This document shows, piece after piece, positions 1,683 through 17,070 of a stretch of 19,577 nucleotides of DNA (position 1 is its first letter; every line of letters starts with the position of its first letter). Source of the DNA: a virus (taxonomy: Duplodnaviria > Heunggongvirae > Uroviricota > Caudoviricetes); IMG/VR virus record IMGVR_UViG_2698536387_000012, one strand, 5' to 3'. The notes beneath the pieces are model-generated. The model saw only the letters and a program-made list of their open reading frames with translations. It searched no databases and was not told where the DNA came from. The position numbers were made by a program, and so were the translations under genes.

Positions 1683-2114
1683 ATGGCTCAGGCTGCCATT
1701 TTTAAAGAAATATTCGATCAAGTGCGTAAAGATTTAAACTGTGAATTATTTTATTCTGAGCTAAAACGTCACAATGTCTCACTTTATATTTACTATTTAG
1801 CCACAGATAATATTCACATTGTGTTAGAAAACGACAACATAGTGTTAGTAAAAGGACTCAAAAAGGTTGTAAATGTTAAATTCTCCAGAAACAAACATCT
1901 TATAGAGACCTCCTATAATAAGTTGAAATCAAAAGAAATCACATTTCAACAATACAGGGAAAATCTTGCTAAAGCAGGAGTTTTCCGATGGGTTACAAAT
2001 ATCCAGGAACACCAAAGATATTACTATGCCTTTGATAACTCATTACTATTTACTGAAAGCATCCAGAAAATTACTGAAAGCATCCAGAAAACTACACAGA
2101 TCTTACCACGCTAA
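1683..2114 (+). CDS. ydfO: YdfO-like protein (DUF1398 family as recalled), 143 aa
   Basis: ATG at 1683 preceded by GGAAGG (7-nt spacing); [30 protein letters not shown]... The track's upstream ATG at 1668 lacks an SD. Contains an in-frame 21-bp tandem duplication near the 3' end. Confidence 0.8.
2050..2091 (+). repeat. Perfect 21-bp tandem duplication (2 copies of ttactgaaagcatccagaaaa) inside ydfO
   Basis: Read directly; gives the in-frame repeat [14 protein letters not shown] in the protein. Confidence 0.9.
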
Positions 2115-2766: not shown

Positions 2767-2885
2767 GATGGTGTTAACTCCAGTCATCGCTGGCACTACC
2801 ACTGCTGGTTCAGAGTTAAAAAAAACTATGATTTTTTTCATGATGTTACCGTAGTATGTGAGTATCCATCGAATAGACACCAAGC

Positions 2886-2905
2886 AAAAAAGCTCCCGAA
2901 GGAGC
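2886..2905 (-). terminator. Rho-independent terminator downstream of cspI
   Basis: Minus-strand GCUCC-UUCG-GGAGC hairpin followed by UUUUUU. Confidence 0.7.
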
Positions 2906-3112
2906 CTTCATTTTCACTTTTTTAAATCCAACGACAGACGGCTGGCATTTAAGTATTGTGAAATATTATCAAATGTAATCATCATTGATTTACAAAAGAT
3001 ACATTTTGCCCCGAAAGGATTCATGTCAGAAACATCAAAAGATGATGTTCTATACTGGGAACCATGACAACACGGGCATCTAAAGTGAATATGGTTTGTA
3101 ATATTGTCTACC

Positions 3113-3325
3113 TCAAAGCGCCACTACATGAACAGCGGCAGGACCTTTAGGTCCGTTCTCAATACCAAATTCAACTTCCTGATTCTCAGTTAATGTTTTG
3201 AAATCGTTGCTCTGAATTGCTGAGAAATGGACAAACACATCTTTGCTGCCATCTTTCGGCGTGATGAAACCAAAACCTTTTTCAGGGTTAAACCATTTCA
3301 CTAAACCAGTCATTTTGTTAGACAT
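3113..3325 (-). CDS. cspI: Cold-shock protein CspI, 70 aa
   Basis: [38 protein letters not shown]... carries the CspA-family RNP motifs (KGFGFI, VFVHF). Confidence 0.9.
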
Positions 3326-3686
3326 AATTATTACCTTTTGAAGAAATTAGCCCTTGGGCAGAATGGTCCGAAAAAAATATCAGAGAGAAAAACCAACAAG
3401 GAAATCTCAAGAGGTACAAATAATAAAATTATAACAATGACTGCTTCAGATAAATTTGTAACAAACCAGAACACCATTAACGCATGATTAACCACCCATA
3501 GCAAGGATTACTTTTGTAAAGAAAAACACAGCAATGAAAGAATAGCTTTATTTATTAATAAAACGTGTCATTCTGATTAAGACCTTTTATCTTACCCTTA
3601 AGATTTCAGGAATTTTGGCTCATGGAAGAGTCCTTTTTATTCAAATTTTACATTCCGCGATGTAAATGTTCCGATTTAATATTACC

Positions 3687-5714: not shown

Positions 5715-5995
5715 GAGATTGTGGTGCTTTTTGTGGGAGTCATCCACTTACGCACTTTGTTTTGCCATGCCAGCAGTTAGCTTCTGCTGTAAAACTATTC
5801 ATGCAGCAAACCTGCACTTCACCACAATGGTTAGCATACTTTTCCTGATTAAGATTTTGCCAAATATGCTAGCCATTGTTTCATGTATTGGACCTCCTTA
5901 TTTTTTATTAAAGAGATCCAATATTCACTACTCTGTCCGTATCTCTACTCAGGCATCAGCCTTCTTCGTTATCGTATACAGACGAGCGATGAATT

Positions 5996-6211
5996 TTAAT
6001 CAGTAATGATGACATTTGCTGCTGCAGGACCTTTAGCACCACTCTCTATAGAGAAGGTAACCTTTTGACCTTCAAATAAGGTTCGATAATTATCATTCTG
6101 AATCGCAGAAAAATGCACAAACACATCTTTACTACCATCAACAGGAGAAATAAAGCCGAAACCTTTATCAGCGTTAAACCATTTTACTAAACCAGTCATT
6201 TTATTTGACAT
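5996..6211 (-). CDS. cspB: Cold-shock protein CspB, 71 aa
   Basis: [71 protein letters not shown]; about 300-bp upstream non-coding leader typical of cspA-family genes. Confidence 0.9.
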
Positions 6212-6511
6212 TCTACATTCCTTAACTTGAGCCTTTCGGCATAAATGGTTTGCATAACAGAAACGACTTCGTACTTAATTGGAGAGACTCAAAGAAGGAA
6301 TAAGTGAATAACACCTGAAATGAGAACTGCTTTAGTAAACTACTTCGTATATCGTCTGTTCTTCAAACCGACGCAATCATTAACGCATAGTTGAACATAT
6401 GAAGCAATGTTTATTTTAGACATCCAGCCATCTTCAACCCCATCAAAAAACTATAGCTTTCTTCAGGAACGTGTGTATAGTGCGCCAAGTTATCAGTATT
6501 AAGGAATTTTT

Positions 6512-9559: not shown

Positions 9560-9680
9560 CAGAATCCTTCCGGATAATTAGCTCTCCCCTTTAAGGGACC
9601 ATCCCTCTTATCCCTGCGCGCTACTTAAGTATTTTTGATTCTATTCCGGCACCGTCCAGAACTTCAAACGCGTTGAAAAT

Positions 9681-9706
9681 AAAAACAAAAACCCGCCGAA
9701 GCGGGT
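9681..9706 (-). terminator. Rho-independent terminator of the relB-relE-hokD operon
   Basis: Minus-strand ACCCGC-UUCG-GCGGGU hairpin followed by UUUUUGUUUUUAUUUU, about 70 nt downstream of the hokD stop. Confidence 0.7.
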
Positions 9707-9775
9707 TAAGTGCGGGTGCGTTGAGGATGCCTGCCACATCAGAGGTGGCGAGGGATTTCTCCCCCGCCGGGTCTC

Positions 9776-9931
9776 TTACTCCTCAGGTTCGTAAGCTGTG
9801 AAGACAGCGACCTCCGTCTGGCCGGTTCGGATTCGTACCTCGCAGAGGTCTTTCCTCGTTACCAGTGCCGTCACTATGACGGTTAAACAGATGACGATCA
9901 GGGCGATTAACATCGCCTTTTGCTGCTTCAT
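9776..9931 (-). CDS. hokD: Hok-family type I toxin HokD (RelF), 51 aa
   Basis: Hand translation MKQQKAMLIALIVICLTVIVTALVTRKDLCEVRIRTGQTEVAVFTAYEPEE; below the ORF-track cutoff. Confidence 0.85.
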   Translation of the reverse strand: MKQQKAMLIALIVICLTVIVTALVTRKDLCEVRIRTGQTEVAVFTAYEPEE

Positions 9932-10002
9932 AGCCTGCTTCTCCTGTCAACGCAAAGCAGAAGTGTCACCTTCGGTGCGAAACAGAGATGTCATGCTTTG
10001 GT

Positions 10003-10290
10003 TCAGAGAATGCGTTTGACCGCCTCGCTATATACTTCCGAGCGTTCTCTTTTCCCAACAGAAATCACGAAAACGACAACTTTCTCGTCTATAACCTGGT
10101 ATACAAGGCGATAGCCTGAAGACCGGAGCTTAATCTTGTAACAATCAGGCATACCACGGAGCTTGTTTGCTTCAATCCGGGGTGACTCAAGTACTTCAAC
10201 CAGCTTCTTTTTCAACTGTTCACGTACCGTCGAGCCCAGCTTTCGCCATTCCTTTAGTGCCCGCTCGTCAAAATCCAGAAAATACGCCAT
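10003..10290 (-). CDS. relE: RelE mRNA-interferase toxin, 95 aa
   Basis: MAYFLDFDERALKEWRKLGSTVREQLKKKLVEVLESPRIEANKLRGMPDCYKIKLRSSGYRLVYQVIDEKVVVFVISVGKRERSEVY... Confidence 0.9.
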   Translation of the reverse strand: MAYFLDFDERALKEWRKLGSTVREQLKKKLVEVLESPRIEANKLRGMPDCYKIKLRSSGYRLVYQVIDEKVVVFVISVGKRERSEVYSEAVKRIL

Positions 10291-10529
10291 CAGAGTTCAT
10301 CCAGCGTCACACGTACTGGCTTAGGATTACGAAGCCGTTCTTTCACTATCTCCACAAGTTCAGCATCTTCATCACTCAGGAGTGTCTGTTTGAACGGCAA
10401 GCGTTCATTGTCAGCGATATACTCGAGCATGAGACGAAGCGCTTCAGAAGGAGTTACACCCATTTTTTCAAGCGCGGCGTAAGAACGCGCTTTAAGTTCA
10501 TCGTCAATACGCAGGTTAATGCTACCCAT
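10290..10529 (-). CDS. relB: RelB antitoxin, 79 aa
   Basis: MGSINLRIDDELKARSYAALEKMGVTPSEALRLMLEYIADNERLPFKQTLLSDEDAELVEIVKERLRNPKPVRVTLDEL; its stop overlaps the relE start. Confidence 0.9.
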   Translation of the reverse strand: MGSINLRIDDELKARSYAALEKMGVTPSEALRLMLEYIADNERLPFKQTLLSDEDAELVEIVKERLRNPKPVRVTLDEL

Positions 10530-10540
10530 GTCTTACACCT

Positions 10541-10593
10541 CTTGTAATTACAAATGTCATTACAAGTATCGCACTACAACATGCTTAGGGCAA
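10541..10593 (-). promoter_or_regulatory. relBE promoter (-35 TTGCCC, -10 GATACT) with relO operator palindromes
   Basis: Minus strand reads TTGCCC-N17-GATACT-TGTAATGACATTTGTAATTACAAG-AGAGGTG-N5-ATG; contains the perfect palindrome TTGTAATTACAA. Confidence 0.7.
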
Positions 10594-10859
10594 GTCACGA
10601 AGGAAGTCAGAAAGTAGTCGTAAGAACGGTGATCACTGTCCGCTTTGTGCCAGGAGCAGCCATTGCTAAGTCCATCCTGTATTGTGCAGGTCAGCTCGCT
10701 TTTAAAGAGTCCGGCCATCATCTTACTGGTACAGACACCATATACTTTGTGACGGTCAGGCTACATATGCACAACTCAACTTATTCATCTATTTTTTGCT
10801 TTAGCATGTCAGTGTTGCTTTCTCGTCGGCGGGTGAGCGGTGACCTGACCTGTCGATAA
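10554..10859 (+). CDS. ydfV: Doubtful ORF (ydfV position in K-12) overlapping the relBE operator, 101 aa
   Basis: ATG lies inside the relO palindrome; no SD; Cys/His/Ser-rich low-complexity translation. Listed only because K-12 annotates an ORF of this length here. Confidence 0.25.
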   Translation: MSLQVSHYNMLRASHEGSQKVVVRTVITVRFVPGAAIAKSILYCAGQLAFKESGHHLTGTDTIYFVTVRLHMHNSTYSSIFCFSMSVLLSRRRVSGDLTCR

Positions 10860-11011
10860 AGGAACGTAGCACGTTTTATGCAACACCCGCATGCGGCAGA
10901 AAATTATTGCCGAACGTTTACCCCTGTCAACAAGCTTTACTTTCTGAGGCGCGCCAGCCCGCGAGGAAAACAATCTGAACATCAAACAATTAATGACACA
11001 AGAAATACGAT

Positions 11012-11038
11012 TAAAGATTTTTTTGTGCATGCCGATAG
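11012..11038 (+). promoter_or_regulatory. Sigma-28 (FliA) promoter of flxA: TAAAGATT-N11-GCCGATAG
   Basis: Near-consensus match to TAAAGTTT-N11-GCCGATAA, 24 nt upstream of the flxA ATG. Confidence 0.7.
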
Positions 11039-11061
11039 TGCTTTTTTAAAAGGAGAAATCT

Positions 11062-11394
11062 ATGTCTGTCACAATTCAGGGAAATACCTCAACCGTTATT
11101 TCAAACAACTCCGCCCCGGAAGGAACATCAGAAATAGCCAAAATCACAAGACAAATTCAGGTGCTGACTGAAAAGCTTGGGAAAATCTCATCGGAAGAGG
11201 GGATGACGACACAGCAGAAAAAAGAAATGGCTGCATTGGTACAGAAGCAAATTGAAAGCCTCAGGGCTCAACTGGAGCAGTTGTTAAGGCAGCAGGCAGA
11301 GAAAAAGAATAAAGACGCGACAGTTCAGCCTGATAAAAAAGAAGAGAAAAAAGACGATACAAATACCGCTGGCACCATTGATATTTACGTCTAA
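11062..11394 (+). CDS. flxA: FlxA, 110 aa
   Basis: MSVTIQGNTSTVISNNSAPEGTSEIAKITRQIQVLTEKLGK...; AGGAG 6 nt upstream. Confidence 0.9.
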   Translation: MSVTIQGNTSTVISNNSAPEGTSEIAKITRQIQVLTEKLGKISSEEGMTTQQKKEMAALVQKQIESLRAQLEQLLRQQAEKKNKDATVQPDKKEEKKDDTNTAGTIDIYV

Positions 11395-11408
11395 GTGACA
11401 GCCGTATT

Positions 11409-11431
11409 GTGGCCCTCATCGGGCCACTTTT
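11409..11431 (+). terminator. Rho-independent terminator of flxA
   Basis: GTGGCCC-TCATC-GGGCCAC followed by TTTT. Confidence 0.7.
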
Positions 11432-11597
11432 CGCCATCAGCCTTTTCTTTAAAGACATATTATCTTTGTATCATTTCTGATAGTTAACATTACAAGATAT
11501 AAGTAATGGACGCACTCCCAATTAGTCTATTTAAATCGCCACGAGTTTAACTGACAACCCATGATCAATTATGAATTGCAACTATTTCTGTAGTCAC

Positions 11598-13230
11598 TTT
11601 TGTGGGGACAGTCCACAAAACTGCCAACTTCCGCTTCTTGCTCTTAGCGGACATTAGCATAGGCTATTTACCATAACGCCTCATTACGCGCACCGCCCAG
11701 ACTGACTCAGCGCGTTTCTGGCATATCCCCGGTAAAACAAGTAACAAACCACCCGAAAATGAACACCAGAAACGCGACTTAAGAATCTACCCTATGAATG
11801 GATATGCACTCAACCGAATCGATCTTGGTTTCAATCTATTTTATCGGGATCAGGCTTCTTTTTAGGTAACTTCGGGGGCTTAACTTGCTGATGACTTTGC
11901 GTTCGGCGCGTAAGCCAGGGATGGTCAGCTTTAGATTTAACATAGTATTTTGAGCGTAAATCAATACGGGCATTATCCACTCGTTCATGGACACTCTTTT
12001 CATCATCCAGTGGTATAGGCTCCGGGCCATCAACATACTTTTCCCAGCCCAGCGCTTTCCCGTCATACAGAACGTTAATTTCACCGTCAAAGTTCTCACA
12101 TACAGTAACAACCGAATGCCTAAGTCGATATCCCCGGCCCTCACTGCGTACCTGAAACGCACTGCTTTTGTACTGGAAAGTGAGATTTTTAGACAGAACG
12201 CGCTTCGCCTGTAGGCTGAAGATATAACCCAGTTCCTCTTCAGAATGGTGCACATCAAGATGAGCATTATCAGTAGTACGAGGCGACGTAGCGAACCGGT
12301 TGTTATAGGCTTCAATAAAGGTCGGCAACCATGCATTTGCTGTTTCAATATCACTGATATTCTGAAGCCGCATTTCTTTGACCAGCCTGTCCTGTAGTGT
12401 CTGATTGGCGCGCTCTACCCGCCCTTTTGCCTGCGGGCTGTTGGCATGGATTGGCTCGATGCCCAGTGTCTTTATCGCACGAGTGAACTGGGTCAGCTCA
12501 CCTTCCCGCTCTGGGTTATTTACCCTGAATATACTGTGTCTATCAGAGTAGAGAGCGAGCGGTACGCCATGATCATTAAGGTAACCCCGGAGGGTTTCCA
12601 TGTAAGCCCGGGTTGTTTCAGCAGGCACAAAACGCAACGCCATCAACGCACTGGTGGCATCATCAATGAAAACGATCAGTGTACATCTGGGGCCTCGATT
12701 TTCAAACCAGTCATGAGGTGAGCCATCAATCTGGATCAGTTCACCGTAAGATGGTCGTCGCATGCGGCGTTGATATATACGGGCAATTTTACGACGGCGT
12801 TCACGCCATAACCCCTCTTCTATCATCCACTTTCTGAGAGTTTCAACGGATAAAGATAAACCGTGTATCTCGCGCAATTTTTCGCACGCAAACGTAGGTC
12901 CAAAATCAGCGTAACGGCCTTTGAGGAGTGAAATTACTGTTGCTCTGAATTCAGTAGAAAAGGAATTATTAGGACGCTTTCCACGTCGGTGGGAAACCAG
13001 ACCAGAAGGCCCTTCATTTCTATACCGTTGCACCAGACGTTTAACCTGCCGAATAGAAATGCCAATGCGTGCCGCAGCTTGTTCCTGAGTAATATGTCGA
13101 TTAATTGACTCCTGAATAATCTGAAGTCGGTGGAGTTCCTTATGACTCATCGTAACAGTCTCTTTGATCATGAAAAATCCCCCAGAGAATTGTCTGGGGA
13201 CATTTTAGAATGGTTCAAAGGGGACATTAC
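11598..13230 (-). mobile_element. Insertion sequence carrying the transposase; boundaries are guesses
   Basis: I could not find terminal inverted repeats or target duplications. Bounds are bracketed by hairpins at 11598-11620 (TTTTGTGG-N7-CCACAAAA) and 13180-13199 (CCCCAGA-N6-TCTGGGG) and by repeated GGGGACA motifs. Confidence 0.25.
11831..13171 (-). CDS. DDE transposase with N-terminal HTH and rve/integrase-core domain (IS481/ISNCY-like), 446 aa
   Basis: N-terminal HTH (ITQEQAAARIGISIRQVKRLVQRY), catalytic core (IQIDGSPHDW...IVFIDDATS...LYSDRHSIF...KGRVERANQTL). The family call is approximate. Confidence 0.8.
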   Translation of the reverse strand: MIKETVTMSHKELHRLQIIQESINRHITQEQAAARIGISIRQVKRLVQRYRNEGPSGLVSHRRGKRPNNSFSTEFRATVISLLKGRYADFGPTFACEKLREIHGLSLSVETLRKWMIEEGLWRERRRKIARIYQRRMRRPSYGELIQIDGSPHDWFENRGPRCTLIVFIDDATSALMALRFVPAETTRAYMETLRGYLNDHGVPLALYSDRHSIFRVNNPEREGELTQFTRAIKTLGIEPIHANSPQAKGRVERANQTLQDRLVKEMRLQNISDIETANAWLPTFIEAYNNRFATSPRTTDNAHLDVHHSEEELGYIFSLQAKRVLSKNLTFQYKSSAFQVRSEGRGYRLRHSVVTVCENFDGEINVLYDGKALGWEKYVDGPEPIPLDDEKSVHERVDNARIDLRSKYYVKSKADHPWLTRRTQSHQQVKPPKLPKKKPDPDKID

Positions 13231-13624
13231 AGCTTGATGTTAACAATAGCCTGCTTCTCCTTGCCTTCCGGCACTCGCGACAGATTATGTTTAGACGACT
13301 GTCGTAGCGACGTATTTCTCCGTCAGGTAATGACCAGATAAGGTCCGGATCAACCACAGCAGGTTTCTTCACCTTTGCCCTCGAGAGTTTTTTGCGGGCG
13401 TTTTGCCAGTCCTTACGCGCCTGTTCAGACGGGAATAACCCGTAACCAGAGCTGTATACATCGCCACTGGCAACCAGCTCTCTGGCCAGAACGCTCATCA
13501 GATATCTTGTTGCCCCAGTTTTAGCTTCCAGTTGTCGTAACGTCTCGCGCCCACTCTGGCGTACGAGTTCCACCACCTGCCCTTTAATTTTTTCCCGCTC
13601 TTCTTGTGTAAAAACTTTTGCCAC
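13205..13624 (-). CDS. Hypothetical protein, 139 aa, downstream of the O-like gene; C-terminus possibly altered by the adjacent IS
   Basis: GTG at 13624 preceded by AGGAGG (4-nt spacing); the 3' end abuts the transposase region. Confidence 0.5.
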   Translation of the reverse strand: MAKVFTQEEREKIKGQVVELVRQSGRETLRQLEAKTGATRYLMSVLARELVASGDVYSSGYGLFPSEQARKDWQNARKKLSRAKVKKPAVVDPDLIWSLPDGEIRRYDSRLNIICRECRKARRSRLLLTSSCNVPFEPF

Positions 13625-17012: not shown

Positions 17013-17070
17013 TTTCTGGTGACGTTTGGCGGTATCAGTTTTACTCCGTGACTGCTCTGCCGCCCTTTTT
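17013..17070 (+). ncRNA. dicF: DicF small RNA (cell-division inhibitor sRNA)
   Basis: Matches DicF as I recall it: UUUCUGGUGACGUUUGGCGGUAUCAGUUUUACUCCGUGACUGCUCUGCCGCCCUUUUU; ends in a terminator-like stem plus U-tract; sits upstream of dicB. Confidence 0.85.

What the first reader, a model, noticed from the sequence alone, without database searches (positions are those of the whole stretch)
9681..10593. Complete relB-relE-hokD operon with operator, promoter and terminator intact
A type II toxin-antitoxin pair and a type I Hok toxin share one transcription unit: promoter and relO palindromes at 10541-10593, overlapping relB/relE, hokD 71 nt after relE, and a strong terminator 70 nt after hokD. 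I could not identify a separate promoter for hokD or any mok/sok-like antisense elements, so how HokD is kept silent here is not evident from sequence.
Basis: partly seen in the sequence, partly recalled or inferred. Interest (0 to 1): 0.45.

Follow-up and report, generated by a model that had tools for sequence, protein, structure and literature searches.

The report
Transposon-built relB-relE-hokD toxin operon
This is the long-known relB-relE-hokD (relBEF) operon of the E. coli Qin prophage; the sequence shows it arose when a 3.3-kb insertion-sequence-derived transposon carrying relBE landed on the start of a prophage hok toxin gene and cut it off from its sok/mok control.

Summary
relB, relE, hokD, the relO operator and a terminator lie where stated, and no mok or sok is present. 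The operon itself is already known: it is the relBEF operon of the Qin prophage, 100% identical in over 1,100 E. coli genomes.

The new part is how it arose. relBE is the right-end cargo of a 3,301-bp element (13245..9945, minus strand) that also encodes an intact ISNCY/IS1202-family transposase. The element has imperfect TGT...ACA terminal inverted repeats. It is flanked by a 15-bp target duplication, GGAGAAGCAGGCTAT, which is the hokD Shine-Dalgarno through "AT" of the ATG. relBE-less prophages supply the matching empty site (284/285 identical).

The insertion moved the hok promoter, tac, mok start and sok 3.3 kb away. In 671 E. coli genomes that leader still abuts the left end. In this window it is deleted down to 29 nt.

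Related elements sit, in the same orientation, at the start of at least eight different hok genes.

HokD is probably kept silent without antisense RNA. RelB/RelE repress the only promoter. A conserved helix pairs the hok start region with the end of its ORF, and no mok translation remains to open it. This silencing mechanism is inferred, not shown.

The parts
13261..13274 (-). Last 14 nt of the original hok mRNA leader (GTGCCGGAAGGCAA; its complement holds the sok -35-like TTGCCT). It is fused to the 3' end of a DUF977 gene. The rest of the leader and sok are deleted in this window.
   Evidence: sequence; the same flank in L167/L001, whereas L160/L161/L164 have a full leader. RF01794 94-104 bits abutting IRL in those loci.
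13246..13260 (-). Left copy of the 15-bp target-site duplication GGAGAAGCAGGCTAT
   Evidence: identical 15-mers flank the element in 40 locus pairs.
13220..13245 (-). IRL, the left terminal inverted repeat TGTTAACATCAAGCTGTAATGTCCCC. A subterminal repeat of its inner part (AATGTCCCC) lies at 13221..13196.
   Evidence: 18/26 identical (ungapped) to the reverse complement of IR-R.
11831..13171 (-). Intact 446-aa DDE transposase of the ISNCY / IS1202 (ISEsa1-like) family
   Evidence: ORF. NF033594, 465.5 bits, cutoff 250. HTH_28/29/32 and rve_3. RefSeq names it 'IS1202-like element ISEsa1 family transposase'. K-12 ydfW is its last 49 codons.
11666..11694 (-). cer/dif-like XerC/XerD-type site GGTGCGCGTAA-TGAGGCG-TTATGGTAAAT inside the element, 137 nt after the transposase stop
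   Evidence: pattern match, conserved in L159-L168. Function not tested.
10554..11394 (+). Middle cargo on the opposite strand: flxA (11062..11394) and the ydfV ORF (10554..10859). ydfV starts inside relO and runs out through IR-L'.
   Evidence: In other hosts this middle segment is replaced by cytochrome b561-like and cation-efflux genes.
10628..10660 (-). IR-L', an internal left-end-like repeat (core TGGCACAAAGCGGACAGTGATCACC, 10652..10628) in the same orientation as IRL. With IR-R it brackets a ~0.7-kb relBE module.
   Evidence: local alignment with rc(IR-R) scores 31 against 11.8+/-2.3; 0 of 2,000 shuffles and 0 of 3,000 random pairs reach it..
10565..10593 (-). PrelBE: -35 TTGCCC (10593..10588), 17-nt spacer, -10 GATACT (10570..10565)
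   Evidence: Read. Anchored by the published position of relO (-10 to +17, overlapping the -10 box; PMC2812701). Not called by the consensus scan.
10542..10565 (-). relO operator: half-sites TTGTAATGACAT and TTGTAATTACAA (four [A/T]TGT[A/C]A hexads)
   Evidence: The sequences are identical to those mutagenised and footprinted in PMC2812701.
10290..10529 (-). relB antitoxin / RHH repressor
10003..10290 (-). relE mRNA-interferase toxin
9945..9970 (-). IR-R, the right terminal inverted repeat GGTGACACTTCTGCTTTGCGTTGACA. It ends in ACA, and its tip is an outward-facing TTGACA.
   Evidence: In about 25 different contexts, homology stops exactly after GTTGACA.
9964..9966 (-). ACA site matching the reported MazF cut 34 nt upstream of the hokD AUG
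   Evidence: PMC5001579; position read.
9930..9944 (-). Right copy of the target-site duplication GGAGAAGCAGGCTAT. It supplies the hokD Shine-Dalgarno (GGAG) and the first two bases of the ATG.
9776..9931 (-). hokD (relF) ORF, 51 aa. Codon 47 TAC (9793..9791) is the reported TadA A-to-I editing site (Tyr to Cys, about 6% edited).
   Evidence: The same protein accession (WP_000813254.1) is annotated in sok-linked loci. Editing: PMC12214031, PMC5630033.
9785..9944 (-). Conserved long-range helix pairing the hok translation-initiation region (9944..9914) with the 3' end of the ORF (9816..9785)
   Evidence: On 9 diverse hok genes: 84.4% of cells paired against 73.7% in shuffles (0/500); 9 pairs with compensatory changes; 21-50% when slid. 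14 of 15 pairs form in the window.
9711..9726 (-). Orphan fbi (fold-back inhibition) element CCTCAACGCACCCGCA. Its partner tac is not in the window.
   Evidence: duplex with tac of the intact locus L003 is -38.3 kcal/mol against -19.4+/-3.4 for shuffles (0/500). There is no tac-like sequence in or near the operon.
9681..9707 (-). Native hok intrinsic terminator (7-bp stem, 5 GC, plus a T-run)
   Evidence: Identical in intact L003.

Best explanation
What it is (shown). This is the relBEF operon of a Qin-type lambdoid prophage of E. coli.

How it arose (shown from sequence). A 3,301-bp transposon spans 13245..9945 on the minus strand. Its order is IRL, an ISNCY/IS1202-family transposase, a Xer-like site, flxA and ydfV, IR-L', PrelBE/relO, relB, relE, IR-R. 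It inserted into a resident sok-hokD type I toxin-antitoxin locus, between the leader and the ORF. The insertion duplicated 15 bp that run from the hokD Shine-Dalgarno to the 'AT' of the ATG.

The insertion left the hokD ORF, its SD (regenerated by the duplication), the fbi element and the terminator directly behind relE. It moved the hok promoter, tac, ucb/dcb, the mok start, the Sok target and the sok gene 3.3 kb upstream. In this window all but 29 nt of that leader was later deleted.

How it works.
(1) Shown in the literature: the only promoter feeding hokD is PrelBE. RelB2-RelE bound at relO represses it, and it is derepressed when RelB is degraded or RelE is in excess. hokD is therefore co-transcribed with relBE and the transcript ends at hok's own terminator.
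(2) Inferred: HokD is not controlled by any antisense RNA. It stays low for two reasons. The operon is normally repressed. And the hok start region is held in a conserved helix with the 3' end of the ORF. In intact loci that helix is opened by ribosomes translating mok (Thisted & Gerdes 1992, established knowledge). mok is gone here, and the relE stop lies 71 nt away.
(3) Literature: full toxicity of this Hok type also involves a second cysteine made by TadA editing of Tyr47. Only about 6% of hokD mRNA is edited.
For: Identity.

No sok/mok: with positive controls.

Transposon evidence:
- Transposase: NF033594, 465.5 bits.
- Terminal repeats: IRL and IR-R are 18/26 identical ungapped, with TGT/ACA tips. 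IR-L' against IR-R scores 31 against 11.8+/-2.3, with 0 of 5,000 controls reaching it.
- Identical 15-bp direct repeats flank the element.
- Empty site: the left flank plus the right flank minus one repeat is 284/285 identical to relBE-less prophage L003, with an exact 80-mer across the junction.
- A complete RF01794 leader abuts IRL in L160, L161 and L164. 671 E. coli genomes hold at least 80% of the 300-nt query spanning leader, target duplication and IRL.
- The same element, 99.8% identical, sits at two other sites. One has its own 15-bp duplication, CAACCTGGGGTGATA.
- Further independent insertions carry their own duplications: GGAGAAGAAGGCCAT, GGAGAAGAAGCCATG, TGGAGGGGCTATGATG.

Regulation: relO sequence and repression (PMC2812701). 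Co-transcription and promoter dependence (PMC3598666). The conserved helix over the start region. Intact but orphan fbi. Editing level.
Against: No experiment accessible here measures HokD translation from the native operon. Silence is inferred from the absence of reported killing.

Thermodynamic folding gives only intermediate occlusion. The unpaired probability of the SD is 0.2-0.5 and of the AUG 0.3-0.8, depending on which 5' end is assumed. The helix test rests on 9 related sequences.

The hokD part of the mRNA accumulates after toxin-induced cleavage, and MazF creates a short-leader hokD mRNA. Either could allow translation.

The hokD CDS is toxic when overexpressed.

One copy (L185) has only a 6-bp flanking repeat, and ISEsa1 is listed as having no detectable target duplication. 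Transposition has not been shown experimentally.
Confidence: 0.75

Rival explanations
1. hokD is a working third toxin of the operon, not a silenced relic. When relBE is derepressed by starvation, phage infection or other toxins, or when its mRNA is cleaved, HokD is made and depolarises the membrane as a second-line or abortive-infection killer.
For: The ORF and its SD are intact, and the region is 100% identical in the best-matching records among 1,162 genomes that hold at least 80% of it. The target duplication regenerates the SD. The relF part is the most abundant fragment after toxin induction. MazF cuts 34 nt upstream of the AUG. The CDS is toxic on overexpression. Every hok-linked copy has relBE reading into hok.
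Against: The hokD protein is the same as in sok-linked copies and the nucleotide sequence is 98-99.6% identical. Conservation may therefore reflect a recent insertion or exchange rather than selection in this context. In L187 an adjacent deletion removes the 5' part of hokD, in L017 an IS interrupts hok, and in L034 it is truncated. No killing by native relBEF induction is reported in the papers read. The start-region helix is intact.
Confidence: 0.2
2. The relBE-hokD junction came from an undefined 'major rearrangement' or from homologous or illegitimate recombination, not from transposition. The inverted repeats would then be incidental.
For: This is the older description of hokD as inactivated by genomic rearrangement. 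The ~0.7-kb relBE module (IR-L'..IR-R) shows no target duplication of its own in any context. Flank exchanges between copies do occur (L156/L196).
Against: There is an exact empty site. Matched 15-16-bp direct repeats of different sequence flank at least five insertions. A family-typical transposase and TGT...ACA ends are present. The identical 3,301-bp unit sits at unrelated sites.
Confidence: 0.04
3. A cryptic antisense RNA (sok-like or new), or a trans-acting Sok from another hok locus, still represses hokD.
For: E. coli genomes carry several hok/sok loci, with a median of 2 places per genome matching hok sequence. The promoter scan used is too insensitive to exclude an antisense promoter: it also misses the real hok and sok promoters in L003.
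Against: Sok acts on the mok start region of the leader, which is not part of this mRNA. There is no RF01794 or other antisense family hit on either strand at E<=10. The DNA that would encode sok lies beyond the transposon and is deleted here.
Confidence: 0.03
4. The clustering of these elements at hok starts reflects selection or survivorship rather than target-site choice by the transposase. Only insertions that disarm hok while adding relBE persist on plasmids and prophages.
For: Non-hok insertions exist: L168, L033, L185 and about ten right junctions with unrelated flanks. No obvious shared target motif was found beyond GCA(A/T) just before the duplication (by eye).
Against: The duplication ends at the 2nd or 3rd base of the start codon in 5 of the 8 hok genes, and at the 5th, 6th and 12th base after its first base in the other three. 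The orientation is always the same. Other members of the IS1202 family are known to be site- and orientation-specific.
Confidence: 0.3

Closest known systems
relBEF (relB-relE-hokD/relF) operon of E. coli K-12 cryptic prophage Qin
   Same: The same genes, relO, promoter, spacing (71 nt) and terminator. The sequence is 100% identical over relBE and its promoter region in K-12 records.
   Different: K-12 has lost the left ~1.2 kb of the transposon. Only the last 49 codons of the transposase survive there, as 'ydfW', fused next to ydfX/dicC. The transposon is therefore not recognisable in the reference strain. This window keeps IRL and an intact transposase.
hok/sok of plasmid R1 and chromosomal hokC/sokC (canonical type I TA)
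   Same: A Hok/Gef toxin ORF, its SD, the helix between the start region and the ORF 3' end, the fbi element and the terminator.
   Different: No hok promoter, tac, ucb/dcb, mok, Sok target or sok gene. Transcription comes from a type II TA promoter instead.
Intact sok-hokD loci of relBE-less lambdoid prophages (L003, L004), and hokW-sokW of Sakai prophage Sp5
   Same: L003 and L004 carry the same HokD protein (WP_000813254.1) at the same prophage position (between the replication/DUF977 genes and rem-ydfU-Q) with the same 3' UTR. hokW-sokW is a functional TA in a lambdoid prophage (PMC8621323).
   Different: Those loci are uninterrupted and have a full RF01794 leader (107-108 bits). They are the empty site of the insertion seen here. 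I did not test whether hokW itself is the same allele.
IS1202-family insertion sequences, including 'transporter IS' with passenger genes (ISKpn21, ISKpn65) and ISEsa1
   Same: A single large HTH-HTH-DDE transposase (446 aa against 394-507), 24-26-bp imperfect TIRs with TGT/ACA tips, a subterminal repeat of the inner IR, unusually long target duplications in part of the family (16-17 bp), and site- and orientation-specific insertion in one subgroup (PMC10132070, preprint 10.1101/2022.12.17.520857). The IS-like part shared by the two element types is 1,609 bp, the listed length of ISEsa1.
   Different: The functional right end lies 1.7-4.5 kb beyond that IS-like part, after relE. The cargo is a complete type II TA operon plus variable genes. 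The duplication is 15-16 bp. The preferred target is the hok start region, not a Xer site. ISEsa1 is listed with weak TIRs (15/22) and no detectable duplication, which may mean its right end was mis-assigned. I could not check ISfinder.
Toxin-antitoxin cargo on Tn3-family transposons and pdif modules of Acinetobacter plasmids
   Same: Type II TA genes travel as cargo of small mobile units bounded by inverted sites. pdif modules with TA genes are mentioned in PMC10132070. The Tn3-family cases are from my own knowledge and were not checked here.
   Different: The recombination machinery differs (a DDE ISNCY transposase with target duplications, not Xer or Tn3 resolvase systems). I tested and rejected a Xer/pdif reading of IR-L'/IR-R.

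Membership tests
Type II RelBE toxin-antitoxin operon | RelB/DinJ-family RHH antitoxin gene immediately upstream of, and overlapping, a RelE/ParE-fold toxin gene | tested here: met
   Pfam RelB 1e-32 and ParE_toxin 2e-13. NF008412 133 bits and TIGR02385 54.7 bits, both above cutoff. 1-nt overlap TGATG.
Type II RelBE toxin-antitoxin operon | Autoregulatory operator overlapping the promoter (relO: two adjacent 12-bp half-sites, four [A/T]TGT[A/C]A hexads) | tested here: met
   TTGTAATGACAT and TTGTAATTACAA at 10565..10542 are identical to the sequences characterised in PMC2812701. Binding itself was not tested here.
[quoted passage not shown] | Hok/Gef-family toxin ORF of about 50 aa | tested here: met
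   PF01848, 82.9 bits.
[quoted passage not shown] | cis-encoded Sok antisense RNA gene and its target in the hok mRNA leader | tested here: not met
   RF01794 has no hit in the window at the gathering threshold or at E<=10. It scores 94-118 bits in control loci. Only 29 nt of leader remain, at 13274..13246.
[quoted passage not shown] | Overlapping mok reading frame to which hok translation is coupled | tested here: not met
   An in-frame TGA lies 6 codons upstream of the hokD ATG, and upstream of 9945 is transposon and relE sequence.
[quoted passage not shown] | tac (5') / fbi (3') fold-back pairing of the full-length mRNA | tested here: not met
   fbi is present and fully complementary to the tac of an intact locus (-38.3 kcal/mol, 0/500 shuffles). 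tac is absent from the window, and no comparable partner exists in the relBEF mRNA (-23 kcal/mol best over 800 nt).
[quoted passage not shown] | Conserved structure sequestering the hok translation-initiation region | tested here: met
   Helix 9944..9914 with 9816..9785. Covariation on 9 hok genes. 14 of 15 pairs form in the window.
IS1202 (ISNCY) family transposable element | Single large transposase with N-terminal HTH domains and a DDE (RNase H-fold) core, 394-507 aa | tested here: met
   446-aa intact ORF at 13171..11831. NF033594 ISNCY family transposase, 465.5 bits against a cutoff of 250. HTH_28/29/32 and rve_3.
IS1202 (ISNCY) family transposable element | Imperfect 24-26-bp terminal inverted repeats with 5'-TGT ... 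ACA-3' tips | tested here: met
   IRL TGTTAACATCAAGCTGTAATGTCCCC and IR-R ...GGTGACACTTCTGCTTTGCGTTGACA: 18/26 in the window, 19/26 with the common IRL variant. Family description.
IS1202 (ISNCY) family transposable element | Direct target-site duplication flanking the element, and an uninterrupted empty site elsewhere | tested here: met
   15-bp repeats in the window and in L162, L163 and L168, and 16 bp in L156/L196. Empty site 284/285 identical. Exception: L185 has only a 6-bp repeat. L033's repeats differ at 2 of 15 positions.
IS1202 (ISNCY) family transposable element | Demonstrated transposition (circle junctions, mating-out) | not testable with these tools
   Only comparative evidence: the same 3,301-bp unit, 99.8% identical, at three unrelated sites.
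Integron gene cassette (attC) / Xer-dependent pdif module (considered for the relBE module) | Boundary inside a GTTRRRY core site (integron), or 11-6-11 XerC/XerD sites at both ends (pdif) | tested here: not met
   Homology ends after GTTGACA, not after the G. GTTGACA does not fit GTTRRRY. IR-L' and IR-R differ by a 3-nt indel and match the XerD arm at no more than 6/11 positions (read by eye).

The most novel reading that the evidence does not exclude
relBE of E. coli, the founding RelBE toxin-antitoxin system, is the cargo of an IS1202-family 'transporter IS'. Its true right end lies just downstream of relE. It makes 15-16-bp target duplications.

It inserts preferentially, and always in the same orientation, at the Shine-Dalgarno/start codon of hok genes. 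At least eight different Hok types are hit, in prophages, plasmids and chromosomes of Escherichia, Enterobacter, Klebsiella, Kluyvera, Pseudocitrobacter, Lelliottia and relatives.

Each such hit disarms a type I addiction module by severing hok from its promoter, mok and sok. It installs a type II module in its place and captures the hok ORF as a third cistron. This would also explain why ISEsa1 was reported to have weak ends and no target duplication.
Probability: 0.55. Interest if true: 0.6.

Novelty: new member of a known kind. Interest (0 to 1): 0.35.

Why it matters
The operon itself is textbook material and carries no novelty.

What the window adds is a concrete origin for it. The 'rearrangement' that orphaned hokD is a clean insertion of a relBE-carrying IS1202-family element. 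The missing sok/mok are displaced by 3.3 kb; the insertion itself did not delete them.

If the hok preference is real, it is a case of one addiction module travelling on a transposon that specifically knocks out another. That bears on conflicts between mobile elements, on plasmid-stability engineering that relies on hok/sok, and on the interpretation of relBE deletion strains (the ΔrelBE and Δ10 strains alter hokD transcription). It would also give the poorly known ISEsa1 branch of the IS1202 family defined ends, a duplication length and a target.

Tried and rejected
1. Searching for a sok-like antisense promoter with the consensus scan gave nothing on the plus strand. The same tool misses the genuine hok and sok promoters in an intact locus, so this negative is uninformative. 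I rely on the covariance model and the junction analysis instead.

2. A weak Rfam match of the hokD 3' UTR to isrK (25 bits, gathering score 50) was treated as hairpin-plus-terminator resemblance and not pursued.

3. I first read the relBE module (IR-L'..IR-R) as a self-contained mobile cassette and looked for its own target duplications in about 20 contexts. None were found.

4. Integron attC and Xer/pdif explanations for the module ends were rejected on sequence.

5. A single ancestral relBE-hok fusion followed by hok-hok homologous exchange was rejected. The distance from IR-R to the ATG varies (13, 12, 10 and 3 nt), and each insertion has its own matching left-hand duplicate.

6. No IRR-like sequence lies next to the transposase gene.

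7. The empty site for the L168 insertion was not found in E. coli genomes. That locus is from another species.

8. The full-transcript fold suggested that the hokD SD pairs with the last codons of relE. The pairing disappears with other 5' ends, so I do not rely on it.

9. Bech 1985, Gerdes 1986, Fozo 2008 and Pedersen & Gerdes 1999 are not held in the library. Their content is cited only through papers that quote them.
Full report
OBSERVATION. On the minus strand the window holds three genes.
- relB, 10529..10290 (79 aa).
- relE, 10290..10003 (95 aa), sharing one base with relB (TGATG).
- hokD, 9931..9776 (51 aa), starting 71 nt after the relE stop.

Pfam and NCBIfam assign them to RelB/DinJ, RelE/ParE and Hok/Gef, all above the curated cutoffs. 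An intrinsic terminator (stem 9707..9690 plus a T-run) begins 68 nt after the hokD stop. The two relO half-sites mutagenised and footprinted by Overgaard et al., TTGTAATGACAT and TTGTAATTACAA, are at 10565..10554 and 10553..10542 (PMC2812701). I read -35 TTGCCC (10593..10588) and -10 GATACT (10570..10565). The automatic scan did not call that promoter because its -35 matches only 3 of 6 positions.

IDENTITY: ALREADY KNOWN. The 1,101-bp stretch is 100% identical to E. coli chromosomes annotated relB, relE, hokD and ydfV. 1,162 of 5,426 complete genomes hold at least 80% of it. The window also carries DicF and cspA-type leaders and matches cryptic prophage Qin of K-12. Three points are established in the literature:
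- relB, relE and relF (= hokD) are co-transcribed from PrelBE, and deleting that promoter abolishes induction (PMC3598666; PMC5120126).
- Ramisetty and co-workers stated that integration of plasmid-derived relBE shortened an ancestral ~70-codon hokD (mokD) frame (PMC6379469).

WHAT IS MISSING AND WHAT IS KEPT OF THE hok LOCUS. The Rfam model of the sok/hok leader (RF01794) finds nothing in the window, even at E<=10. It scores 118 bits on K-12 hokC/sokC and 107-115 bits on three other hokD loci. Many E. coli prophages carry the same HokD protein (WP_000813254.1) at the same position, between the replication/DUF977 genes and rem-ydfU-Q, without relBE and with a full leader. Homology between those loci and the window starts at 9945/9944, immediately 5' of the hokD SD.

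Retained:
- The SD and the ORF.
- A conserved long-range helix between the start region (9944..9914) and the ORF's 3' end (9816..9785).
- The fbi element (9726..9711).
- The terminator.

fbi still pairs perfectly in silico with the tac of an intact locus (-38.3 kcal/mol against -19.4+/-3.4 for shuffles, 0/500). tac is not in the window.

WHERE THE REST WENT: A TRANSPOSON. RelE-encoding loci from 80 species showed that a ~0.7-kb relBE module (window 10660..9945) recurs at 83-100% identity. Its right boundary is razor-sharp, '...CTGCTTTGCGTTGACA', and completely different DNA follows it.

The module is bracketed by imperfect inverted repeats. The local alignment scores 31 against 11.8+/-2.3, and none of 2,000 shuffles or 3,000 random pairs reaches it.

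Longer contexts showed a 446-aa transposase gene upstream. A third repeat, IRL (TGTTAACA[C/T]CAAGCTGTAATGTCCCC), lies just before it. In the window:
- IRL is 13245..13220.
- The transposase ORF, 13171..11831, is intact. It is an ISNCY-family transposase (NF033594, 465.5 bits, cutoff 250), which RefSeq calls 'IS1202-like element ISEsa1 family'.
- IR-R is 9970..9945.
- IRL and the reverse complement of IR-R match at 18-19 of 26 positions and have the TGT/ACA tips described for the IS1202 family.

The 15 bases left of IRL (13260..13246) and right of IR-R (9944..9930) are identical: GGAGAAGCAGGCTAT. Joining the left flank of a related copy (L160) to its right flank, minus one repeat, reproduces the uninterrupted sok-hokD locus of L003 at 284 of 285 positions, with an exact 80-mer across the junction.

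In L160, L161 and L164 a complete RF01794 leader (94-104 bits) ends exactly at IRL. 671 E. coli genomes hold at least 80% of the 300-nt query that spans leader, target duplication and IRL. In this window only the last 29 nt of the leader survive, fused to a DUF977 gene, so sok is gone.

K-12 has lost IRL and most of the transposase. Its orphan gene ydfW is the last 49 codons of that transposase. That is presumably why the transposon has gone unremarked in the reference strain.

MOBILITY AND TARGET CHOICE. The same 3,301-bp unit (99.8% identical) sits between unrelated genes in L168 with its own 15-bp duplication, CAACCTGGGGTGATA. It also sits at a third site in L185, with only a 6-bp repeat.

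Versions of 5.8-6.1 kb carry cytochrome b561-like and cation-efflux genes instead of flxA-ydfV. They are inserted in two plasmid-type hok genes, with duplications GGAGAAGAAGGCCAT and GGAGAAGAAGCCATG. Another copy lies in a further hok gene with a 16-bp duplication, TGGAGGGGCTATGATG. There the flanks have been exchanged between two copies in one genome.

Four more Hok types abut IR-R in loci whose left ends were not retrieved (L015, L019, L030, L034). All eight adjoining ORFs hit PF01848. In every case relBE reads into hok. The duplicated segment ends at the 2nd or 3rd base of the start codon in 5 of the 8, and at the 5th, 6th and 12th base after its first base in the other three. About a dozen right junctions are not in hok.

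I infer a strong, oriented preference for the hok start region. I cannot separate target choice from selection.

The part shared by the two element types (13245..~11637) is 1,609 bp, the listed size of ISEsa1. ISEsa1 is recorded with weak TIRs (15/22) and no detectable duplication. Its right end may have been mis-assigned. I could not check ISfinder.

HOW THE OPERON WORKS.
- Shown in the literature: RelB2-RelE binds relO and represses PrelBE. Loss of RelB or excess RelE derepresses it. hokD rides on that transcript.
- Shown here: no element of antisense control remains. The hokD SD is regenerated by the target duplication. The tip of IR-R is an outward TTGACA, but no -10 follows it at a usable distance, so no hybrid promoter is evident.
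- Inferred: HokD synthesis is low because the start region is locked in a helix with the ORF's 3' end. On nine diverse hok genes, 84.4% of cells pair against 73.7% in shuffles (0/500). Nine pairs show compensatory changes. Only 21-50% pair when the partner is slid. 14 of 15 pairs form in the window. In intact loci hok is translated only by coupling to mok (established knowledge: Thisted & Gerdes 1992; summarised in PMC9841398). mok is absent and the relE stop is 71 nt away.
- A further brake from the literature: the Tyr47 codon (9793..9791) must be edited by TadA to Cys, and only about 6% of hokD mRNA is edited.

Caveats:
- Single-sequence folding gives only moderate occlusion.
- The hokD fragment accumulates after toxin-induced cleavage.
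- MazF cuts at the ACA 34 nt upstream of the AUG (9966..9964).
- The CDS is toxic when overexpressed.

A conditional role for HokD therefore remains possible, at about 0.2.

COMPARISON AND MEMBERSHIP.
- It is a full member of the RelBE type II family.
- It is not a canonical hok/sok system. sok, mok and tac were tested and are absent. It does keep the hok ORF, the start-region helix, fbi and the terminator.
- The surrounding element meets every sequence-level criterion of an IS1202-family element: transposase, TIRs with TGT/ACA tips, target duplication and empty site. It differs from described members in three ways: a TA operon as cargo, a 15-16-bp duplication, and hok rather than Xer sites as target.

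NOVELTY AND SCORE. The finding as written is already known and by itself deserves a low score. Two features were not described in anything I could read. These are the transposon anatomy (ends, duplication, empty site, displaced leader) and the recurrent oriented insertion at hok starts. The material checked includes the 2026 Hok survey preprint and the two IS1202-family papers. I therefore rate it a new member of a known kind, with overall interest 0.35. The hok-targeting reading is the novel case (probability 0.55).

LIMITS.
- No wet-lab evidence of transposition or of HokD silence.
- The older primary papers could not be read.
- The covariation test uses nine related sequences.
- Target-preference counts come from a capped sample of loci.

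Noticed in passing
window 11666..11694 (-): A cer/dif-like XerC/XerD-type site (GGTGCGCGTAA-TGAGGCG-TTATGGTAAAT) lies inside the transposon, 137 nt after the transposase stop. It is about 30 nt before the point where the E. coli-type and plasmid-type elements diverge. It is conserved in L159-L168. Members of another IS1202 subgroup target Xer sites, but the role of this site is unknown.
   Followed up: partly
window 10554..10859 (+); L007 2043..2237: The annotated gene ydfV starts inside relO, antisense to the relB promoter, and runs out of the relBE module through IR-L'. In other hosts the same start continues into unrelated sequence and gives a different C-terminus. ydfV looks like a chimeric, probably spurious ORF. 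It has no Pfam hit.
   Followed up: partly
L198 (K-12 NC_000913.3) 2775..2924; window 11831..11980: The K-12 orphan gene ydfW is the last 49 codons of the ISNCY transposase. K-12 has deleted IRL, most of the transposase, the hok leader and the DUF977/replication genes.
   Followed up: yes
window 13205..13624 (-): The DUF977 ORF is fused to the 29-nt hok-leader remnant and reads on through the target duplication and IRL. Its last ~20 codons are therefore transposon-junction sequence.
   Followed up: partly
L016 2846..3011: In Citrobacter portucalensis a complete sok/hok leader (RF01794, 94.7 bits) abuts IR-R in inverted orientation, ending at the hok ATG. No hok ORF is on the other side. This is probably an inversion or flank exchange between element copies.
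   Followed up: partly
L156 / L196 / L191 (IMG/VR genome 2534681836); L187; L017; L028: Secondary events around the element. Flanks are exchanged between two copies in different hok genes (L156, L196, L191). An adjacent deletion from IR-R runs into the hokD ORF (L187). An IS3-family insertion with an ALIL pseudoknot lies in the adjoining hok (L017). An IS1 end interrupts the relE-IR-R spacer (L028).
   Followed up: partly
L185 1345..4645: One copy of the 3,301-bp element is flanked by only a 6-bp direct repeat (CGCCTT) instead of 15-16 bp. This is unexplained.
   Followed up: no
L157 (E. coli KW21) about 1940..1975: A flxA-ydfV'-type segment without relBE still carries a diverged copy of IR-L' (CTCCTGGCACATAGCAGACCAGAGACAC) at its boundary. 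It may be a relic of a related element.
   Followed up: partly
window 9686..9767 (-): The hokD 3' UTR (hairpin, fbi, terminator) gives a sub-threshold match to the Salmonella prophage sRNA family isrK (25.1 bits, gathering score 50, E=0.005).
   Followed up: no
window 10003..10010 with 9939..9945 (-): In the fold of the whole relBEF transcript, the hokD SD (AGGAGAA) pairs with the last codons and stop of relE (UUCUCUGA) at probability 0.4-0.77. That would couple SD exposure to ribosomes finishing relE. The pairing is not seen with shorter 5' ends.
   Followed up: partly
window 9638..9667 (-): The only sigma-70-like consensus match in the region (TTGAAG, 18 nt, TAGAAT) lies just downstream of the hokD terminator, upstream of rem.
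   Followed up: no
window 17014..17065 (+); 5980..6372 (-); 3086..3470 (-): DicF sRNA and two cspA-type thermoregulator leaders (cold-shock genes of Qin) are in the same window.
   Followed up: no
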